This document shows, piece by piece, positions 176-25,355 of a DNA stretch of 29,134 nucleotides. Position 1 is the stretch's first letter. Each line of letters begins with the position of its first letter. Source of the DNA: an uncultured Candidatus Saccharibacteria bacterium. GTDB lineage: Bacteria > Patescibacteriota > Minisyncoccia > Phycocordibacterales > WO2-35-19. The position numbers and the translations under genes were made by a program. The notes below the pieces were generated by a model, which saw nothing but the letters and a program-made list of their open reading frames with translations, was not told the DNA's origin and did not search any database. The stretch lies in the NCBI GenBank assembly GCA_964601245.1, contig CAZRMR010000003.1:1-29134 (forward strand). The letters are read 5' to 3'.

Positions 176-261
176 GTCCGGTTTGGTTCGGGGAGAAAGT
201 CAAATGCTTTTTGTGCATATTTTCCTCCCAATTTTGTAAAAAGTTCATAAAGTTGGTTCAT
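1..261 (-). CDS. 32-aa tandem-repeat protein (runs off the left edge; not in the supplied ORF track)
   Basis: ATG at 261, GGAGG at 270-266, open to position 1: MNQLYELFTKLGGKYAQKAFDFLPEPNRT-EELQKILGKQVENGWFTDARKTAELLKRELTI-EELQKILGKQVENGWLDDARETAELL... Confidence 0.85.
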   Translation of the reverse strand, partial: MNQLYELFTKLGGKYAQKAFDFLPEPNRTEELQKILGKQVENGWFTDARKTAELLKRELTIEELQKILGKQVENGWLDDARETAELL

Positions 262-276
262 AAAACCTCCTTTATC

Positions 277-3061: not shown

Positions 3062-6000
3062 ATGAAATTAACCCATCTTCATACTCATTCTCATTATTCC
3101 CTACTTCAAGCATTACCTAAAATACCTGAACTTGTGGATGCTGCTAAAAAAAATGGTATGGAAGCATTGGCTTTGACCGATAATGGTAATTTGTATGGCG
3201 CTATTGAATTTTATAAAGAGTGCCAGAAACAAGGATTGAAACCTATTATTGGTGTAGATGCTTATTTGGCTTCAAGAACTCGTTTTGATAAACAAGCTGG
3301 GGTTGATAAAGACCGATTCAGAGTGGTTTTGCTTTGTAAGAATGAAGTCGGTTATAAAAATCTTTTAAAATTAGTTACCGCTTCGTATCTTGAAGGTTTT
3401 TATTATAAACCAAGAATTGATCTTGAAATTTTAGAGAAATATCACGAAGGTCTTATTTGTATCTCTTCTTCTTGGAGTGGAGACATCTCTACCGCTTTAA
3501 GAAATAAAAATTATGAATTGGCCAAGAATTTAATAAATAAATATAAAAATATTTTTAAAAACGACGATGATAAACAAGACGGAGTCGCTTTAGGTGGAGA
3601 TTTTTATATTGAACTCACTATGCATCCAGAGCTTTTGGGCCACAATGAACACATGAATGAATTGGCTCGTTTTGCTAAAGAAAATTCAGTAGGGATCGTT
3701 GCTTCTCATGATGTATATTACATAAAAAAAGAAGATCGAGAAGCCAGAGAGACTTTGATGGCCGTTAGTCAAGGTATTGATTCAAAAAACTCATTATCGA
3801 GAGGTTTAGATGAATCAGAAGAAGATTTTTCTTTTTTAGATGAAGAAGAAATGAAAAAAAGATTTGCAGATTTTCCAGAGGCCATTTTTAATAATCATAA
3901 AATTTCTGCATTATGCAATCTTGATTTGGAGCTTGGTAGATGGGCTTTTCCTGATATAAAAATTTCTTCTGGCAAAACTTATGATGAAGAATTAAGAGAT
4001 CTATCTTATGCTGGTTTAGAAAAAAGAGATTTACCAAAAACTAAAGAAATAATAGACAGGTTGGATTATGAACTTGGGGTCATAAAGACAAAAGGATATT
4101 CTCCTTATTTTTTGGTCGTTGCTGATCTTTTAAGGTATGCCAGAGAAAATGGGATTCTAAGTAATATTAGAGGGTCTGTTTCTGGATCTCTTGTTACTTA
4201 TGTTGCCGGAATTACAAACATAAATCCTTTGGAATACGAAATACCTTTTGAAAGATTTTTAAATCCAGATAGACCAAGTGCTCCAGATATTGATATGGAT
4301 TTTGCTGATAATCGCCGAGACGAAATGGTTGAGTATGTGAAGCAAAAATATGGATCTGACAAAGTGGCTCAAATTGGAACTTTTGGGACAATGATGGCAA
4401 GAGGAAGTGTGCGCGATACTGCCAGAGCTCTAGGTTTTCCTTATAGTGTTGGAGATAGAATAGCCAAACTTATTCCAATGGGTGCACAGGGTCATCCGAT
4501 GACTATTGATAGGGCTCTCAGCGAAGTTTCTGAACTAGCAGAATTGTACAAAAAAGATGCTGATACAAAAAGAATCATAGATATGGCAAAAAAAATTGAA
4601 GGTTGTGCTCGTCATATTGGTGTTCATGCTGCGGGTGTTGTTATATCTCCAACCGAATTGACGAATTTTACTCCTCTCCAATTTGATCCCAAAGGAGAAA
4701 ACAAAATAATTACCCAATATGATATGTATAGTGTAGACGAAAATGGTGCAGGCCTCCTCAAGTTTGATTTTTTGGGTTTAAAAAATCTTTCCATAATATC
4801 TTCGACTATTGATCTAATAAAAAAATTGAGAGGTATTGATATAGATTTGGATAAAATGCCTATTGACGATAAAAAAACTTTCGAAATGCTTGCCAGAGGA
4901 GAAACAGAAGATCTATTTCAGCTTAACGGAGATGGTATGACTCGTTTTTTGGTTGAACTTAAACCATCATCAATTCACGACATAAACGCTATGGTTGCTC
5001 TTTATCGTCCGGGGCCAATGCAATTTATACCAAATTATATTGAAAGGAAGCATGATCCTTCCAAGATAACTTATTTAGATGAAGCTCTAGAACCAATACT
5101 TAAAAAAACTTATGGCATTTTGGTTTATCAAGATGATCTTTTAATGATGGCTCATAAGCTTGCTGGTTATTCTTGGGGTGAGGTAGATAAGTTTAGAAAA
5201 GCTGTTGGTAAAAAAATTCCAGAAGAAATGGCTTTGCAGAAAGAGAAATTTATAAAAGGATGCATTGAATTTTCCAAATGGTCAGAAAAAAAAGCAAGAG
5301 AAGTTTGGAAATGGATAGAACCTTTTGCCTCGTATGGTTTTAATAAAGCTCATTCAGTATCTTATGGAAGGGTTGCTTATCAAACAGCTTATCTTAAAGC
5401 AAATTTTCCTGGAGAATATATGCGAGCAGTATTGTCGGCTGAATCTGGAGATGTTGAAAAAGTTGCAAGATCAGTAAGTGAGTGCAAAAGAATGGGTATA
5501 AAAATATTACCTCCAGATATAAATGAAAGTTTTTCTGATTTTACTTTGATTGCCCAAAGCGATCCTCAAACTATCAGGTTTGGATTGTCTACTATAAAAA
5601 ATTTTGGTGAAGGAATTTCTCATACTATAACATCAAACAGAAAAGAAAAAGGTAAATTCAAATCGTTAGAAGATTTTCTAACTCGTATTCAAGATCGCAA
5701 CCTAAATAAAAAATCATTAGAAGCTTTAATAAAAAGTGGAGCCATGGATTCTTTTGGAGACCGTGGAGTTCTGCTTGCAAATATGGATAATTTGCTTGCT
5801 TATAATAAAGAAGTTTCTAATTTTAAAGATCAAAATTCTCTTTTCTCTTCTCTGTCCTCATCTGGTCAATTTTCACCACTTCACTTAGAAGAAGTGAGAC
5901 CAGCCCTACTTTCAGAAAAGTTGTCTTGGGAAAAAGAACTTTTAGGTCTTTATGTTTCTGGTCATCCGTTAGATCAATTTAAAGAAAAACTTCAGAATCA

Positions 6001-6286
6001 AAAAATCACAATAAAAAAAATAAAAGATGAAGCAAAAGAAGATGAAATTGTTGTGGTCGGTGGTTTAATAAGTGAAATGCGTGATATCTTGACCAAAAAT
6101 GGTGAAAAAATGTATTTTATAAAATTTGCCGATTTAACAGATGAAATTGAGTTAGTCGTTTTCCCTCGGACTCTTCAAGAGTTCTCTTCAATTTTTGTCC
6201 CAGACCAATGTATTGCAGTCAAAGCTCGCGTCTCTCTTCGCAATGGTGAAAAATCTCTAATTGCCGAAAAAGCCAAAAAGTTATAA
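3062..6286 (+). CDS. dnaE: DNA polymerase III alpha subunit (start revised from 2972 to 3062)
   Basis: PHP HLHTHSHYS, catalytic PDIDMDF, KFDFLGL, FNKAHS, C-terminal OB fold; the ORF-track start overlaps rnhB. Confidence 0.98.
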   Translation: MKLTHLHTHSHYSLLQALPKIPELVDAAKKNGMEALALTDNGNLYGAIEFYKECQKQGLKPIIGVDAYLASRTRFDKQAGVDKDRFRVVLLCKNEVGYKNLLKLVTASYLEGFYYKPRIDLEILEKYHEGLICISSSWSGDISTALRNKNYELAKNLINKYKNIFKNDDDKQDGVALGGDFYIELTMHPELLGHNEHMNELARFAKENSVGIVASHDVYYIKKEDREARETLMAVSQGIDSKNSLSRGLDESEEDFSFLDEEEMKKRFADFPEAIFNNHKISALCNLDLELGRWAFPDIKISSGKTYDEELRDLSYAGLEKRDLPKTKEIIDRLDYELGVIKTKGYSPYFLVVADLLRYARENGILSNIRGSVSGSLVTYVAGITNINPLEYEIPFERFLNPDRPSAPDIDMDFADNRRDEMVEYVKQKYGSDKVAQIGTFGTMMARGSVRDTARALGFPYSVGDRIAKLIPMGAQGHPMTIDRALSEVSELAELYKKDADTKRIIDMAKKIEGCARHIGVHAAGVVISPTELTNFTPLQFDPKGENKIITQYDMYSVDENGAGLLKFDFLGLKNLSIISSTIDLIKKLRGIDIDLDKMPIDDKKTFEMLARGETEDLFQLNGDGMTRFLVELKPSSIHDINAMVALYRPGPMQFIPNYIERKHDPSKITYLDEALEPILKKTYGILVYQDDLLMMAHKLAGYSWGEVDKFRKAVGKKIPEEMALQKEKFIKGCIEFSKWSEKKAREVWKWIEPFASYGFNKAHSVSYGRVAYQTAYLKANFPGEYMRAVLSAESGDVEKVARSVSECKRMGIKILPPDINESFSDFTLIAQSDPQTIRFGLSTIKNFGEGISHTITSNRKEKGKFKSLEDFLTRIQDRNLNKKSLEALIKSGAMDSFGDRGVLLANMDNLLAYNKEVSNFKDQNSLFSSLSSSGQFSPLHLEEVRPALLSEKLSWEKELLGLYVSGHPLDQFKEKLQNQKITIKKIKDEAKEDEIVVVGGLISEMRDILTKNGEKMYFIKFADLTDEIELVVFPRTLQEFSSIFVPDQCIAVKARVSLRNGEKSLIAEKAKKL

Positions 6287-6295
6287 TATTTATTT

Positions 6296-8131
6296 ATGAG
6301 TAAAGAAAAATCTCTCGACAAGCTCGAGACAAGCAATATTGAAGAAATAAGACATTCCCTTTCGCATTTATTGGCAGCGGCTGTTTTAGAAATTTATCCT
6401 GAAGCCCTCCCTACTTTGGGACCAGCTACTGATACAGGATTTTATTACGATTTTGATTTGCCGGCCGGAGTTTCAGCGAAGGAGGGTTTCTTAGAATCTA
6501 TTGAGCAAAAAATGCGTGAAATTGGAAAGACATGGAAGACTTTTGATGGTAAAGAAATCTCTTACGATGAAGCTAGAAAACTTTTTTCAAAAAATCCATA
6601 CAAACTTGAATTGATTGAGGAAATAAATTCTAAGGGTGAGAAAATTACTATTTATACTTCTGGTGAAGGTAAAAATTCTTTTACTGATCTTTGCCGAGGT
6701 GGGCATACCGGTGATATGTCAAATGTTTCCTTTGACAGTTGGAAACTTGATAGAGTGGCTGGTGCTTACTGGAGAGGAGATGAGAAGAACAAAATGCTTA
6801 CTCGCATTTATGGTTTGGCTTTTGAGACAAAAGAAGAACTTGATCAATTCATTCAGAATCAAGAAGAAGCAAAAAAAAGAGATCACAGGAAACTCGGAAA
6901 AGAGTTGGATTTTTTCCATATAGATGATGTTGTTGGTTTAGGTCTCCCCCTTTGGCACCCAAAGGGAGCTCTTTTGTGGAGAGTTATAGAAGAATTTTGG
7001 TATAAAAAACACTTACAAAATGGATACGATTTGGTGAGGACTCCTCATATAGGCAATAGGGCCCTTTGGGAAACTTCTGGACATTGGGGTTTTTACAACA
7101 AATCAATGTATCCCCCAATTGAGGTTGGCCAAACCCTGGAAGAAAAACAACAAAATAAAAAAATAGATAATTCCGAAGAATATTTATTGAAGCCGATGAA
7201 TTGTCCTTTTCATGTTGAGATTTATAACAATAGACCAAAATCTTATAGAGATTTACCTTTAAGATGGGCGGAGTGCGGTACTGTGTATAGATTTGAAAAA
7301 AAAGGAGAACTTTCTGGACTTACTAGAGTTAGGGGTTTTACTCAAGACGATGCTCACATTATTTGCAGAAAAGATCAGGTAGAAGATGAGCTAAAAAAAG
7401 TTATAGATTTTATTTTGTTTATTTATCAATCTTTTGGTTTTGATATTGGAAAAGTTAAAGTTTATTTGTCGCTTAGAGATCCGGAAAATAAAGATAAATA
7501 TGCTGGTGATGATCTGGGTTGGAAATTTACTGAGGAAGTTTTGAGGAAAGTTGCTGTAGAAAAGAAATTAAACTTCAAAGAAGAATTGGGAGAAGCAGCA
7601 TTTTATGGACCAAAACTTGATTTCAAAATCGAAGATTCTTTGGGTAGGGAGTGGCAATGTTCAACCTTACAATTTGATTTTAATTTACCAGAAAGATTTG
7701 ATATGACTTTTGTGAATTCAGAGGGTAAGCAAGAAAGACCTTACATGCTTCACAGGGCCTTGTTTGGGTCATATGAAAGATTTATAGGTCTTCTTATCGA
7801 ACACTATGCTGGAGCTTTGCCTTTCTGGCTTTCTCCTGTTCAGGTAAAAATTATTCCCGTGAGATCAAACCACAATGAATATGCCAAAAAAATTCATGAT
7901 TTTCTTATAGAAAATGATATCCGTTCAGAATTTGACGATAGAGATGAAAATCTTGGAGGAAAAGTTCGCTCTGCAAAAAATGAAAAAATTCCTTATTGGA
8001 TTGTAGTCGGTGATAAAGAAGTTGAGTCAAAAGAATTTGTTTTAGAATCTCTCGATGGTTCTAAATTAGATCCACTTTCTTCTCAAAATCTACTGGACCT
8101 CTTCCAAAAACAAATCAAAGAAAAGAAATAA
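6296..8131 (+). CDS. thrS: Threonine--tRNA ligase (no N-terminal TGS domain)
   Basis: RHSLSHLLA, DLCRGGH, KPMNCP, RVRGFTQDDAH, AFYGPK, anticodon-binding domain. Confidence 0.98.
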   Translation: MSKEKSLDKLETSNIEEIRHSLSHLLAAAVLEIYPEALPTLGPATDTGFYYDFDLPAGVSAKEGFLESIEQKMREIGKTWKTFDGKEISYDEARKLFSKNPYKLELIEEINSKGEKITIYTSGEGKNSFTDLCRGGHTGDMSNVSFDSWKLDRVAGAYWRGDEKNKMLTRIYGLAFETKEELDQFIQNQEEAKKRDHRKLGKELDFFHIDDVVGLGLPLWHPKGALLWRVIEEFWYKKHLQNGYDLVRTPHIGNRALWETSGHWGFYNKSMYPPIEVGQTLEEKQQNKKIDNSEEYLLKPMNCPFHVEIYNNRPKSYRDLPLRWAECGTVYRFEKKGELSGLTRVRGFTQDDAHIICRKDQVEDELKKVIDFILFIYQSFGFDIGKVKVYLSLRDPENKDKYAGDDLGWKFTEEVLRKVAVEKKLNFKEELGEAAFYGPKLDFKIEDSLGREWQCSTLQFDFNLPERFDMTFVNSEGKQERPYMLHRALFGSYERFIGLLIEHYAGALPFWLSPVQVKIIPVRSNHNEYAKKIHDFLIENDIRSEFDDRDENLGGKVRSAKNEKIPYWIVVGDKEVESKEFVLESLDGSKLDPLSSQNLLDLFQKQIKEKK

Positions 8132-23172: not shown

Positions 23173-24186
23173 ATGAATTTTCTAAATGAAGAAAAAAATT
23201 TTGATTTTGTGGCTATTGGCGATATTACGACTGACGCTTTTATAAGGCTTAAAGATGCAAAAGTCTTATGTGATTCTGAAGGTAAAAAATGCGAATTGTC
23301 TTTACGTTTTGGCGATAAGGTTCCTTATGAATTTATGGAGGAAGTAAGAGCGGTGGGCAATAGTGCAAACGCTTCAGTTTCAGCTCGGAGACTTGGTCTA
23401 AATTCTGCCTTGGTCACAAACGTTGGAGACGATCACAATGGTCTCGAATGTATAGCCACACTTAAAAAAAATGGAGTGGCTACAGATTTTGTATCTATAC
23501 ATAAAGACAAAGAAACAAATTATCATTATGTTTTGTGGTTCGAGGACGATAGGACTATTCTCGTTAAGCACCATGAATATGAATATAAACTTCCAGATAT
23601 TGGCAGACCAAAATGGGTATATTTGTCATCTATGGGAGAGAATTCACTTCCTTACCATCACGAAATTGCAGATTATTTAAGAAAAAATCCAGAAATAAGA
23701 TTAGCTTTTCAACCAGGTACTTTCCAAATTAAACTTGGTTATGAGAATTTAAAAGATATCTATTCTCAAACAGATGTCTTTTTTTGCAATAAAGAAGAAG
23801 CTAAAAGTATACTAAATAAACCAGAAGAGAATGATATAAAAAATTTGTTGATCGGAATTAGAGATTTGGGGCCAAATGTTTCAGTTATAACTGATGGCCC
23901 TAAAGGAGCTTATGCTTATGATGGATATGAAGGTTATTTTATGCCCACATTTAAAGATAAAAAACCACCTTATGACAGGACTGGTGCCGGTGATGCTTTT
24001 GCTTCAACTTTTATTTCGGCAATAGCTCTTGGTAGATCACTTTTTGACGCTTTTTTGTGGTCGCCAATAAATTCTATGTCGGTCGTTCAAGAGATTGGTG
24101 CTCAAAAAGGTCTTTTAAGACAAGAAGATTTGTTGAAAATTCTATCTGAAGCCCCAAGCGATTATCATCCAGAGAAAATAATTTAG
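23173..24186 (+). CDS. PfkB/ribokinase-family carbohydrate kinase
   Basis: GNSANASVSARRLG, VGDD, FCNKEE, VITDGPKGA, DRTGAGDAF. Confidence 0.93.
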   Translation: MNFLNEEKNFDFVAIGDITTDAFIRLKDAKVLCDSEGKKCELSLRFGDKVPYEFMEEVRAVGNSANASVSARRLGLNSALVTNVGDDHNGLECIATLKKNGVATDFVSIHKDKETNYHYVLWFEDDRTILVKHHEYEYKLPDIGRPKWVYLSSMGENSLPYHHEIADYLRKNPEIRLAFQPGTFQIKLGYENLKDIYSQTDVFFCNKEEAKSILNKPEENDIKNLLIGIRDLGPNVSVITDGPKGAYAYDGYEGYFMPTFKDKKPPYDRTGAGDAFASTFISAIALGRSLFDAFLWSPINSMSVVQEIGAQKGLLRQEDLLKILSEAPSDYHPEKII

Positions 24187-24215
24187 CCACAAGTGTTACA
24201 AGTGTTACTTGTGGC
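24186..24215. terminator. Hairpin at the convergence of pfkB and tkt
   Basis: 9-bp stem GCCACAAGT/ACTTGTGGC; weak U-tract on either strand. Confidence 0.55.
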
Positions 24216-24311
24216 CTTTGGATTGGGGGGGCTGGGGGAGAGAAAAGCACCGGTGTTTGGTAAGTGTCTGGATCACCTCCTTTCTCTCTCCCCCACTTTG
24301 TTCGTTAGACT
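24186..24311 (-). ncRNA. Putative small RNA carrying an 18-nt complement of the 16S rRNA 3' end
   Basis: AGAAAGGAGGTGATCCAG at 24285-24268 within a 15-bp stem-loop; promoter upstream, hairpin downstream. Confidence 0.55.
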
Positions 24312-24317
24312 GAGTAA

Positions 24318-24346
24318 AATTTATCAAATATTTTTTCTGTTGCCAA
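24318..24346 (-). promoter_or_regulatory. sigma70-type promoter for the putative sRNA
   Basis: TTGGCA (24346-24341), 17 nt, TGA-TAAATT (-10 at 24323-24318). Confidence 0.55.
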
Positions 24347-24359
24347 ACAAAACTGTTGA

Positions 24360-25355
24360 TTACTTTTTTCTTCTCATGACATCTTCCAGAGCTTTTTGTA
24401 TGTTTTCTGTTTCAAGACCATAGTGTTTAAAAAGTTCTTCTGGGCTTCCGGATTGGCCAAATTTGTCTTTTATTCCTACAAATTCAATGGGAACAGGATA
24501 TTTTCTAGATAATAATTCTGATACAGCACTTCCTAAACCTCCTGCTATTTGATGATCTTCAAGTGTTACTACTGCACCACATTCTTCTGCAAGTTCTAAA
24601 ATCTTTTCTTCATCAAGTGGTTTTATTGTATGAATATTTAAAACTTTGACTGGGATCCCCTCGCCCATAATTTTTTTAGCTACAAGTATTCCGTTGTATG
24701 TTATTGGTCCAGTTGAAATTATCACAACTTTTGCTTTTGTCATCGGATCAAAAAGTAAATTTGATTTACCAATTTCAAAAGGGGTTTCTTCTGTTGTTAT
24801 AATTGGAGTGGCGTTTCTCGCTAATCTTATATATACAGGCTTATTTATTTTTATTGATTCGATTGTGGCCTTCTTTGCTTCAAAATAATCAACTGGAGAT
24901 AGGACGACAATATTTGGTATTACTCTCATTAAAGCAATATCTTCAAGAGCTTGATGGGTACCTCCGTCTGGTCCGACAGAAACTCCTGCATGACTGCCAA
25001 CTATTTTTACTGGTAAATCGTTATAACAAATCGTCGTCCTTATTTGTTCCCAATTTCTTCCAGGATTAAACATTGCATAAGAGCTGATAAAAGGTATTTT
25101 GCCCATTCTTGCCATTCCGCTTGCCGTTGTAGCCAAATTTTGTTCTGCCACTCCTAATTGAATAAATCTTTCTGGATATTTTTTAGCAAATAAATTCATT
25201 TGGGTTGATTCGTTTAAATCAGCGCACAAACCAACTACTTCTTTATTTTGATCTCCGGCAATTAAAAGACCCTCTCCAAAACCTTGACGTGTTGATTTTT
25301 TTTCCACATCTTGATCAAAAAGTTTTGCATTTAATTTTAAATTCTGATTCAACAT
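24360..25355 (-). CDS. tkt: Transketolase, C-terminal subunit
   Basis: GVAEQN, SHAGVSVGPDGGTHQALED, PVYIRL, EDHQIAGGLG. Confidence 0.95.
   Translation of the reverse strand: MLNQNLKLNAKLFDQDVEKKSTRQGFGEGLLIAGDQNKEVVGLCADLNESTQMNLFAKKYPERFIQLGVAEQNLATTASGMARMGKIPFISSYAMFNPGRNWEQIRTTICYNDLPVKIVGSHAGVSVGPDGGTHQALEDIALMRVIPNIVVLSPVDYFEAKKATIESIKINKPVYIRLARNATPIITTEETPFEIGKSNLLFDPMTKAKVVIISTGPITYNGILVAKKIMGEGIPVKVLNIHTIKPLDEEKILELAEECGAVVTLEDHQIAGGLGSAVSELLSRKYPVPIEFVGIKDKFGQSGSPEELFKHYGLETENIQKALEDVMRRKK

What the first reader, a model, noticed from the sequence alone, without database searches (positions are those of the whole stretch)
24186..24346. Putative sRNA presenting a perfect 18-nt complement of the 16S rRNA 3' end with no start codon after it
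Seen: plus strand 24268-24285 reads CTGGATCACCTCCTTTCT, the canonical bacterial 16S 3' terminus (established knowledge). Chance expectation in this window is of order 1e-6 under uniform base composition. On the minus strand this is AGAAAGGAGGUGAUCCAG, an extended Shine-Dalgarno. It lies in a 15-bp stem with one bulge (24233-24247/24280-24295) that leaves GAGGUGAUCCAG in the loop. A promoter (TTGGCA-17-TGnTAAATT) predicts a start near 24311 and a 9-bp hairpin lies at 24186-24215, giving ~125 nt. No AUG, GUG or UUG occurs at normal spacing downstream. Inference: an anti-SD-binding RNA that could trap, store or reprogramme 30S subunits in a genome where most mRNAs here lack SD sequences. Alternatively, a plus-strand anti-SD mimic that binds strong SDs.
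Basis: partly seen in the sequence, partly recalled or inferred. Interest (0 to 1): 0.85.

Follow-up and report, generated by a model that had tools for sequence, protein, structure and literature searches.

The report
Small RNA displaying a perfect ribosome-binding site
A tiny uncultured (CPR-type) bacterium whose own ribosomal RNA has lost the sequence that reads Shine-Dalgarno boxes still keeps a conserved small RNA gene whose loop is a perfect 18-base Shine-Dalgarno box with no gene behind it, so the RNA is real but its binding partner is a puzzle.

Summary
CTGGATCACCTCCTTTCT lies at 24268-24285, once in the 594-kb genome, between convergent pfkB and transketolase-C genes. It is neither an rRNA fragment nor a misassembly.

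Comparison with about 23 relatives puts the transcript on the minus strand. They share a sigma-70-like promoter, usually a closing stem whose sequence differs between genomes, and a conserved loop (GAG)AAAGGAGGUGAUCCAG. An intrinsic terminator follows on that strand only. No Rfam family matches, and no RNA-seq data exist.

The 16S of this genome and of 24 relatives (25 examined in all) ends GGAAUAUUUCAAGGUGAA or a similar sequence, without CCUCC. Predicted pairing is -4.5 to -8.7 kcal/mol with the own tail against about -36 with a canonical tail.

The genome also keeps about 20 small, higher-GC genes with textbook SD boxes among SD-less core genes. The RNA sits in a variable gap that holds such genes in two relatives. 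Seven relatives carry two or three motifs.

My best reading, at moderate confidence, is a start-codon-less RBS mimic that competes for whatever still recognises SD boxes. The partner is unresolved.

Earlier notes of this scan describe anti-SD-loop sRNAs in other CPR genomes. None describes this SD-polarity family.

The parts
24318..24346 (-). Sigma-70-like promoter TTGGCA-17-(TG)TAAATT; predicted start near 24311
   Evidence: Promoter scan. A comparable promoter lies at the same place after the transketolase stop in 11 of 23 relatives by a crude scan, against 2 on the other strand.
24176..24311 (-). Predicted small RNA of about 130-135 nt (ends inferred, not measured)
   Evidence: Fold z = -3.84. 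Homologous promoter-to-terminator units lie in the same tkt/pfkB gap of 16 family members, with similar units at other sites in other families.
24282..24295 (-). 5' arm of the closing stem (UGGGGGAGAGAGAA)
   Evidence: In relatives the stem sequence is replaced entirely: GGACGCGGAG, GACACGAAGCAACGGAG, UUACCUCCGGA, ACGGUCCC.
24268..24285 (-). Conserved motif AGAAAGGAGGUGAUCCAG, the exact complement of the canonical 16S 3' end, at the 5' side of the loop
   Evidence: GGUGAUCC(A)G is nearly invariant in relatives. The purine run varies A<->G (GGAGG, GGGGG, GAAGG, GAGGGG).
24233..24246 (-). 3' arm of the closing stem (UUUUCUCUCCCCCA)
24176..24215 (-). Terminal hairpin GCCACAAGU...ACUUGUGGC followed by UAAAUUAUUUU; likely terminator of the sRNA. 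It abuts the pfkB stop codon and may also serve that gene.
   Evidence: In relatives a GC-rich hairpin plus U-run follows the motif on this strand in 17 of 23 (-13 to -29 kcal/mol), against 6 weak ones on the other strand.

Best explanation
This is an independently transcribed, non-coding small RNA gene on the minus strand (about 24311 to about 24178). It belongs to an undescribed family found in one order of CPR/Parcubacteria-type bacteria. The RNA exposes an idealised, start-codon-less ribosome-binding site, (GAG)AAAGGAGGUGAUCCAG, at the 5' side of a hairpin loop. Some relatives expose two or three such sites.

I read it as an RBS mimic (decoy). It would compete with the roughly 20 SD-led accessory mRNAs of this otherwise SD-less genome for whatever component still recognises SD boxes. 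It would thereby tune expression of that gene set without touching the SD-less core genes.

Shown: the gene architecture, the strand, conservation of the motif, absence of an ORF, absence of a canonical anti-SD in the cell's own 16S, and co-existence with SD-led accessory genes.

Inferred: transcription itself, the decoy action, and the identity of the partner. The partner could be the 30S with its degenerate tail, a CCUCC-seed sRNA or a protein.
For: Strand and gene architecture:
- Synteny holds in the tkt/pfkB gap across the family.
- A promoter precedes the motif in 11 of 23 on this strand against 2 on the other. A terminator follows in 17 of 23 against 6 weak ones.
- The minimum free energy favours this strand in 12 of 15 loci.
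- An enclosing helix is more stable than shuffles (at most 3% of shuffles as stable) in 8 of 23, with unrelated stem sequences between genomes.

Motif:
- It is conserved while the flanks diverge.
- No ORF follows it.

Sponge-like multiplicity:
- G001 and G082 carry 3 motifs. G007, G033, G225, G020 and G014 carry 2.

SD-led gene set in the same genome:
- 20-25 small genes have GGAGG 4-10 nt before ATG and mean GC 0.42, against 0.34 for the genome.
- Core genes have no SD.

Location:
- The same gap holds SD-led small ORFs in G002 and G021.
- In G072 the RNA lies directly beside three SD-led small genes.

Exclusions:
- No Rfam family matches.
- The family is single-copy, with no paralogues.
Against: - No transcript data exist.
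The own single-stranded 16S tail pairs with the loop at only -4.5 kcal/mol, no better than 11% of core leaders.
- The decoy idea does not explain why the best-conserved part is GGUGAUCCAG. That part complements the GGAUCA linker and the base of helix 45, beyond any normal SD. The accessory genes' SDs show only the GGAGG core.
- The RNA is missing at the syntenic gap of at least 5 relatives with a collapsed gap, and the pattern search found no other copy in the family.
- The excess of AGGAGG-N4-9-ATG over control is similar in carriers (mean +14) and non-carriers (+11), by my tally. Presence therefore does not track the SD-led gene load.
- CsrA, the classical reader of GGA motifs, is absent.
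Confidence: 0.35

Rival explanations
1. 30S-docking RNA, as the first reader proposed but adapted to the degenerate tail. The loop would pair with the cell's own 16S 3' tail. That tail, GGAAUAUUUC, is the canonical GGAUCACCUC with one U>A and three C>U changes, and G.U wobbles keep part of the duplex. The RNA would park or sequester 30S subunits.
For: - Duplex of -8.7 kcal/mol in family genomes (at most 3% of shuffled loops as stable), -16.1 in G072 and -9.3 in G082.
- The purine run varies only A<->G. U-rich partners tolerate this; CCUCC would not.
- The tail GGAWUWWUUCAA is conserved across the order, so it is functional.
Against: - The -8.7 value needs the last base pair of helix 45 to open. 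With the strictly single-stranded tail it is -4.5, within the range of ordinary leaders.
- Pairing is near random in G033 (-5.5) and G163 (-3.7).
- Tails change (A/U at three positions) with no compensating change in the RNA, which stays complementary to the canonical sequence instead.
- No G>A drift appears at positions opposite U.
Confidence: 0.15
2. RNA aimed at canonical 16S 3' ends that are not the cell's own, such as ribosomes of a host, prey or neighbour. The producer would be immune because its own tail is degenerate.
For: - The 18/18 complement, including CCAG opposite the base of helix 45, is kept across families whose own tails differ. Predicted duplex with a canonical tail is -28 to -40 kcal/mol.
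- All 8 carriers with a known 16S end have degenerate tails.
- Five or six class members with canonical tails had no stand-alone copy.
- No complementary RNA exists in the genome.
Against: - No export route, host or transcript is known.
- Phylogeny confounds the co-occurrence.
- The RNA is patchy within the family.
- This is speculation resting on the absence of an internal partner.
Confidence: 0.07
3. Sponge for a sequence-specific protein or for CCUCC-seed small RNAs. The SD-like sites would titrate a regulator of SD-led mRNAs rather than the ribosome.
For: - Relatives carry 2-3 sites.
- Earlier notes of this scan report anti-SD-loop sRNAs in other CPR genomes.
- G000 has a candidate promoter-to-terminator RNA with CUCCUCCUCCUUUU and UUCCUCC at C11:9562-9665.
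Against: - CsrA is absent.
- The C11 candidate has no BLAST homologues in the family. It also cannot pair with GGUGAUCCAG.
- A protein site would not be expected to match the 16S complement over all 18 bases.
Confidence: 0.15
4. Functionless remnant of an SD-led accessory cassette: promoter, 5' UTR and terminator left after the ORF was lost.
For: - The gap is a variable slot that holds SD-led ORFs or other inserts in relatives.
- First motifs in G001 and G007 still carry SD+AUG followed by an 11-12-codon frame.
- The RNA is dispensable in several relatives.
Against: - The motif, including non-SD bases GAUCCAG, is conserved in at least 17 genomes while stems and terminators turned over completely.
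- None has a start codon at usable spacing.
- Closing stems are maintained.
Confidence: 0.1
5. Plus-strand product: a trans-encoded 16S tail (split rRNA) or an anti-SD mimic RNA.
For: This is the only copy of the canonical tail in a genome whose 16S lacks it, and SD-led genes exist that nothing else can read.
Against: - Relatives show no promoter or terminator on that strand.
- Folding asymmetry favours the other strand.
- The flanks are not like helix 45.
- No conserved docking sequence exists.
- It is absent from several relatives with the same 16S.
- In G072, terminators and genes separate it from the 16S.
Confidence: 0.03

Closest known systems
STAB-SD 5' mRNA stabilisers of Bacillus (cryIIIA GAAAGGAGG; from my own knowledge, Agaisse and Lereclus 1996)
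   Same: A perfect, extended SD (GAAAGGAGG...) that starts no translation and is thought to act by binding the 16S 3' end.
   Different: STAB-SD lies in the 5' UTR of an mRNA, in organisms with a canonical anti-SD. Here the unit ends at a terminator with no CDS, and the host 16S lacks CCUCC.
CsrB/RsmZ-type sponge sRNAs
   Same: Promoter-to-terminator sRNAs that present one to several GGA-containing, SD-like motifs in loops to titrate a factor away from mRNA ribosome-binding sites.
   Different: No csrA gene is present. There is a single motif in this genome. The conserved part extends far beyond GGA and matches the 16S complement.
Anti-SD-less Parcubacteria 16S rRNA (Tsurumaki et al. 2022, PMC9297842)
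   Same: The host lineage fits their subgroup in which CCTCCT is missing from the 16S 3' end and SD helices are thought not to form.
   Different: That work describes the rRNA only. It reports neither a stand-alone RNA carrying the complement of the lost tail nor SD-led accessory genes.
C-rich / anti-SD-seed sRNAs (RsaE/RoxS, alpha-r14/NfeR1), including the CPR anti-SD-loop sRNAs noted earlier in this scan
   Same: Small hairpin RNAs whose conserved loop belongs to the SD/anti-SD pairing code.
   Different: Opposite polarity. Those carry CCUCC and bind mRNA SDs. This one carries GGAGG and would bind CCUCC.

Membership tests
16S rRNA 3' fragment / split rRNA piece | Flanks homologous to helix 45 or the ITS | tested here: not met
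   No SSU match in the window at the gathering or E<=10 thresholds. The upstream sequence is unlike the genome's own h45.
16S rRNA 3' fragment / split rRNA piece | Transcribed in tail-sense orientation and present wherever the 16S lacks its tail | tested here: not met
   Promoter and terminator lie on the opposite strand. The element is absent from at least 5 relatives. Of these, G006, G010 and G011 show the degenerate 16S tail.
Trans-encoded bacterial sRNA gene | Own promoter and intrinsic terminator, no ORF, conserved in relatives | tested here: met
Trans-encoded bacterial sRNA gene | Detectable transcript with defined ends | not testable with these tools
   No RNA run holds this DNA. The single 230-nt contig of run X7 is of unknown library type.
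CsrB/RsmZ-type sponge | Cognate CsrA/RsmA protein encoded in the genome | tested here: not met
   PF02599 is not found in a genome rated 100% complete; the controls respond.
CsrB/RsmZ-type sponge | Several GGA motifs in hairpin loops | tested here: inconclusive
   One motif here; 2-3 in seven relatives.
STAB-SD stabiliser | SD-like element upstream of a CDS on the same mRNA, and a complementary anti-SD in the host 16S | tested here: not met
   A terminator follows and there is no CDS. The host tail is GGAAUAUUUCAAGG.
Any Rfam 15 family | Covariance-model match | tested here: not met
   Only sub-threshold generic hairpin (miRNA) noise appears.

The most novel reading that the evidence does not exclude
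The RNA is aimed at canonical small-subunit rRNA 3' ends of other cells (a host, prey or competitor). The producer would be immune because its own 16S tail has degenerated. It would be an inter-cellular, ribosome-targeting RNA.
Probability: 0.07. Interest if true: 0.95.

Novelty: new variant of a known kind. Interest (0 to 1): 0.6.

Why it matters
About half of Parcubacteria are reported to lack the anti-SD (PMC9297842). Yet these genomes keep a minority of genes with textbook SD boxes, and nobody knows what reads them.

A conserved RNA that carries the exact complement of the lost 16S tail belongs to that unexplained SD code. It gives a concrete handle on the problem: finding its partner would show either how SD signals work without an anti-SD, or that the RNA acts on foreign ribosomes.

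It also adds a new sRNA family for CPR bacteria, where almost no regulatory RNAs are described.

Tried and rejected
1. Split 16S or trans-encoded tail. The only copy of the tail lies here and the 16S lacks it, which looked promising. I rejected it on strand evidence, patchy presence and lack of h45-like flanks.

2. 16S 3' intron in G072. There the tail-like sequence lies 1.6 kb downstream of the 16S on the same strand. The interval holds intrinsic terminators and three SD-led small ORFs with no Pfam match, and no homing endonuclease. Rejected.

3. CsrA sponge. No csrA gene.

4. Known RNA family. None.

5. Internal RNA target. A genome-wide duplex scan and a mismatch search found no rRNA, tRNA or intergenic site. 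The top hits are antisense to SD-led genes or lie in coding sequence.

6. Alternative SD code complementary to the new tail. No k-mer is enriched upstream of core genes beyond AT-rich and -10-like words.

7. Expression. No RNA runs hold this DNA. Laying the reads showed only DNA-type contigs.

8. Correlation of RNA presence with SD-led gene load in the family. No clear difference.

9. Covariance model. Not built. The closing stem sits in a different register to the motif in different genomes, and MAFFT cannot align the arms. I used shuffle tests per genome instead, which are significant in only 8 of 23.

10. Extra copies in the family. The additional pattern hits are coding sequence.

11. Candidate CCUCC partner RNA at C11. 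No homologues found by BLAST in the family.

Full report
**What is in the sequence.**
Window 24268-24285 (+) reads CTGGATCACCTCCTTTCT. The core occurs once in the window. GGATCACCTCCTT occurs once in the whole 594-kb, 37-contig genome. The site lies in the 173-bp gap between the stop codons of two convergent genes. These are a PfkB-family kinase (23173-24186, +) and the C-terminal half of a split transketolase (24360-25355, -).

On the minus strand the RNA from about 24313 to 24176 folds into two elements. The first is a 14-bp G/A-rich:C/U-rich stem around a 35-nt loop that begins AGGAGGUGAUCCAG. The second is a hairpin at 24215-24186. The fold energy is -44 kcal/mol with z = -3.84. A TTGGCA-17-TG-TAAATT promoter lies at 24346-24318 on the minus strand.

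No covariance model of Rfam 15 matches, even at E <= 10. Contigs from three DNA runs cover the element without a difference. X1 may be the source sample; X2 and X3 come from other studies. It is therefore not an assembly artefact.

**The cell's own 16S does not carry this sequence.**
The 16S gene lies on contig C8 and is cut at its 5' end by the contig edge. It has an intact helix 45 (CACGGCUAGC-GGAA-GCUGGUCGUG) and then reads GAAUAUUUCAAGGUGAACAACG.

The same tail appears in 19 further members of the family, nearly invariant for 16-18 nt before the spacers diverge. Related forms occur in other families of the order: GGAAUAAUUC, GGAAUUAUUC, GGAUUAAUUC(C). This fits the Parcubacteria subgroup reported to lack the anti-SD motif (PMC9297842).

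Core genes show no SD. GGAGG lies upstream of 1.1% of long ORFs. Leaders are AT-rich and often carry -10-like words.

**Which strand is the RNA.**
In the family, the tkt-C/pfkB gap is syntenic. In the tkt-sense orientation, which is the window's minus strand, 16 relatives show the same layout:
- a -35/-10 pair a few tens of bases after the tkt stop;
- then the motif;
- then a GC-rich hairpin followed by a U-run that abuts the pfkB stop.

A crude scan over 23 elements (17 in the family, 6 elsewhere) gave these counts:

| Feature | Minus (SD-like) strand | Other strand |
|---|---|---|
| Terminator after the motif | 17 of 23 (-13 to -29 kcal/mol) | 6 of 23 (weak) |
| Promoter before the motif | 11 of 23 | 2 of 23 |

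Whole-gap folding favours this strand in 12 of 15 loci, often by 7-20 kcal/mol, as expected from G.U pairs.

The stem around the motif has unrelated sequences in different genomes. Examples are GGGGGAGAGAGAA, GGACGCGGAG, GACACGAAGCAACGGAG, UUACCUCCGGA and ACGGUCCC. It is more stable than shuffled flanks in 8 of 23. Other members present the motif differently. Several pair GGUGA(UCC) with a degenerate complement a little downstream, such as UUACC, UCACC, GGGAUCACUUC or ACUGGAAACC.

GGUGAUCC(A)G is nearly invariant. The purine run before it varies only A<->G. No member has a start codon at usable spacing. In G001 and G007 the conserved GGUGAUCCAG motif is read in different frames by the short frames that open at an upstream SD+AUG, so the conservation is at the RNA level.

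The element is single-copy. Other pattern hits in the family are coding sequence. It is missing from the collapsed gap of at least five relatives. In others it is replaced by different inserts.

Similar promoter-to-terminator units occur at other loci in other families of the order. They lie next to RmuC and Dus genes and, in G072, next to the 16S. One occurs in another order of the class.

**What it is not.**
It is not a trans-encoded 16S tail or an rRNA relic. It is on the wrong strand, has no h45-like flanks and is present only patchily.

In G072 the tail-like sequence lies 1.6 kb downstream of the 16S on the same strand. The interval contains intrinsic terminators and three small SD-led ORFs, so it is not an intron.

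It is not a CsrA sponge, because there is no csrA gene.

**The partner problem.**
Predicted duplex energies of the loop are as follows.

| Partner | Energy (kcal/mol) |
|---|---|
| Canonical 16S tail | -28 to -40 |
| Own tail, family genomes (needs last h45 pair open) | -8.7 |
| Own tail, G072 | -16.1 |
| Own tail, G082 | -9.3 |
| Own tail, G033 | -5.5 |
| Own tail, G163 | -3.7 |
| Own tail, strictly single-stranded part | -4.5 |

The last value is matched by 11% of ordinary core leaders.

The own tail is the canonical GGAUCACCUC with one U>A and three C>U changes. The residual pairing therefore looks like inherited similarity. The tail varies between families while the RNA stays canonical.

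A genome-wide duplex scan and a mismatch search found no other RNA in the cell with the complementary sequence.

**Context that suggests a role.**
The genome holds 20-25 small genes with GGAGG 4-10 nt before ATG. Their mean GC is 0.42, against 0.34 for the genome. Their leaders would pair at about -12 kcal/mol with a canonical tail but only about -3 with the own tail.

Earlier notes of this scan saw the same puzzle in other CPR genomes. I re-tested it here.

The tkt/pfkB gap is one of the variable slots. It holds SD-led small ORFs in G002 and G021. In G072 the RNA sits beside three such genes. Seven relatives carry two or three SD-like sites in the RNA.

From this I infer an RBS mimic that competes with SD-led mRNAs for whatever recognises them. 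This step is inference, and two facts weigh against it:
- The accessory SDs share only the GGAGG core, so the decoy idea leaves the conservation of GGUGAUCCAG unexplained.
- The excess of AGGAGG-N4-9-ATG over control is similar in carriers (+14) and non-carriers (+11), by my tally.

G000 has a candidate CCUCC-motif RNA at C11:9562-9665. It has no detectable homologues in the family and cannot pair with the conserved 3' half of the motif.

**Literature.**
I found no description of an sRNA that carries an extended SD as its functional loop, nor of any sRNA in these lineages. The nearest concepts are STAB-SD stabilisers (from my own knowledge), CsrB-type sponges, and C-rich anti-SD-seed sRNAs of opposite polarity.

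**Verdict.**
This is a real, conserved, previously undescribed small RNA gene. The paradox makes it worth a transcript and interaction experiment: a conserved perfect complement of a ribosomal tail that the lineage has lost.

Noticed in passing
G000 contig C8:26177-26238 (L001 1488-1560, minus strand): The genome's 16S ends h45 + GGAAUAUUUCAAGGUGAA with no CCUCC. These 16-18 nt are nearly invariant in 20 family members and then diverge, so the new tail is itself under selection. It contains an SD-like AAGGUGA.
   Followed up: partly
G000 genome-wide, e.g. C3:46561 (-), C8:1250 (+), C14:1173 (-); in the window about 228-270 (-): About 20-25 small genes (40-350 aa, mean GC 0.42 against 0.34 for the genome) keep textbook GGAGG boxes 4-10 nt before ATG, although core genes have none and the 16S cannot read them.
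   Followed up: partly
Loci L054, L056, L064, L074 (G227, G229, G024, G233), tkt/pfkB gap: In these relatives the gap holds a 0.5-0.85-kb insert instead. It encodes a small ORF that looks to me like a DUF559-type endonuclease (from memory, not tested), flanked by G-rich inverted repeats (GGGGTGAGG...).
   Followed up: no
G000 C11:9562-9665 (+) (L132 about 263-366): Candidate ~100-nt RNA with an extended -10 promoter (TGCTATAAT). It has a loop with CUCCUCCUCCUUUU and a terminator hairpin whose loop reads UUCCUCC. BLAST finds no homologues in the family.
   Followed up: partly
L107 (G072:C1) 5060-6330, minus strand: Directly downstream of the 16S terminator lie three GC-rich, SD-led small ORFs (hydrophobic by eye), each with its own terminator. 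No Pfam match for the two tested. The SD-loop RNA gene follows on the opposite strand.
   Followed up: partly
L001 about 1839-2035 (G000 16S): The 16S carries a ~130-nt insertion at about model position 1150 relative to the Rfam bacterial SSU model.
   Followed up: no
G000 C1:53040-53200 (+): A GC-rich, promoter-to-terminator unit of about 150 nt downstream of smpB, the probable tmRNA and a small ORF. It starts GUGAAUGGGAGGGGGCUGG and ends in a hairpin plus U-run. Not identified.
   Followed up: no
Terminators of L060 (G014) and L072 (G001): The sRNA terminators of two different genera are clearly homologous (..CACGCAAAAGATCGGCTTGCGTG.. against ..CGCGCAAAAGATCGGCTTGCGCG..) with compensatory changes. 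Stem types of the main hairpin are distributed mosaically across genera, which hints at exchange of the cassette between species.
   Followed up: no
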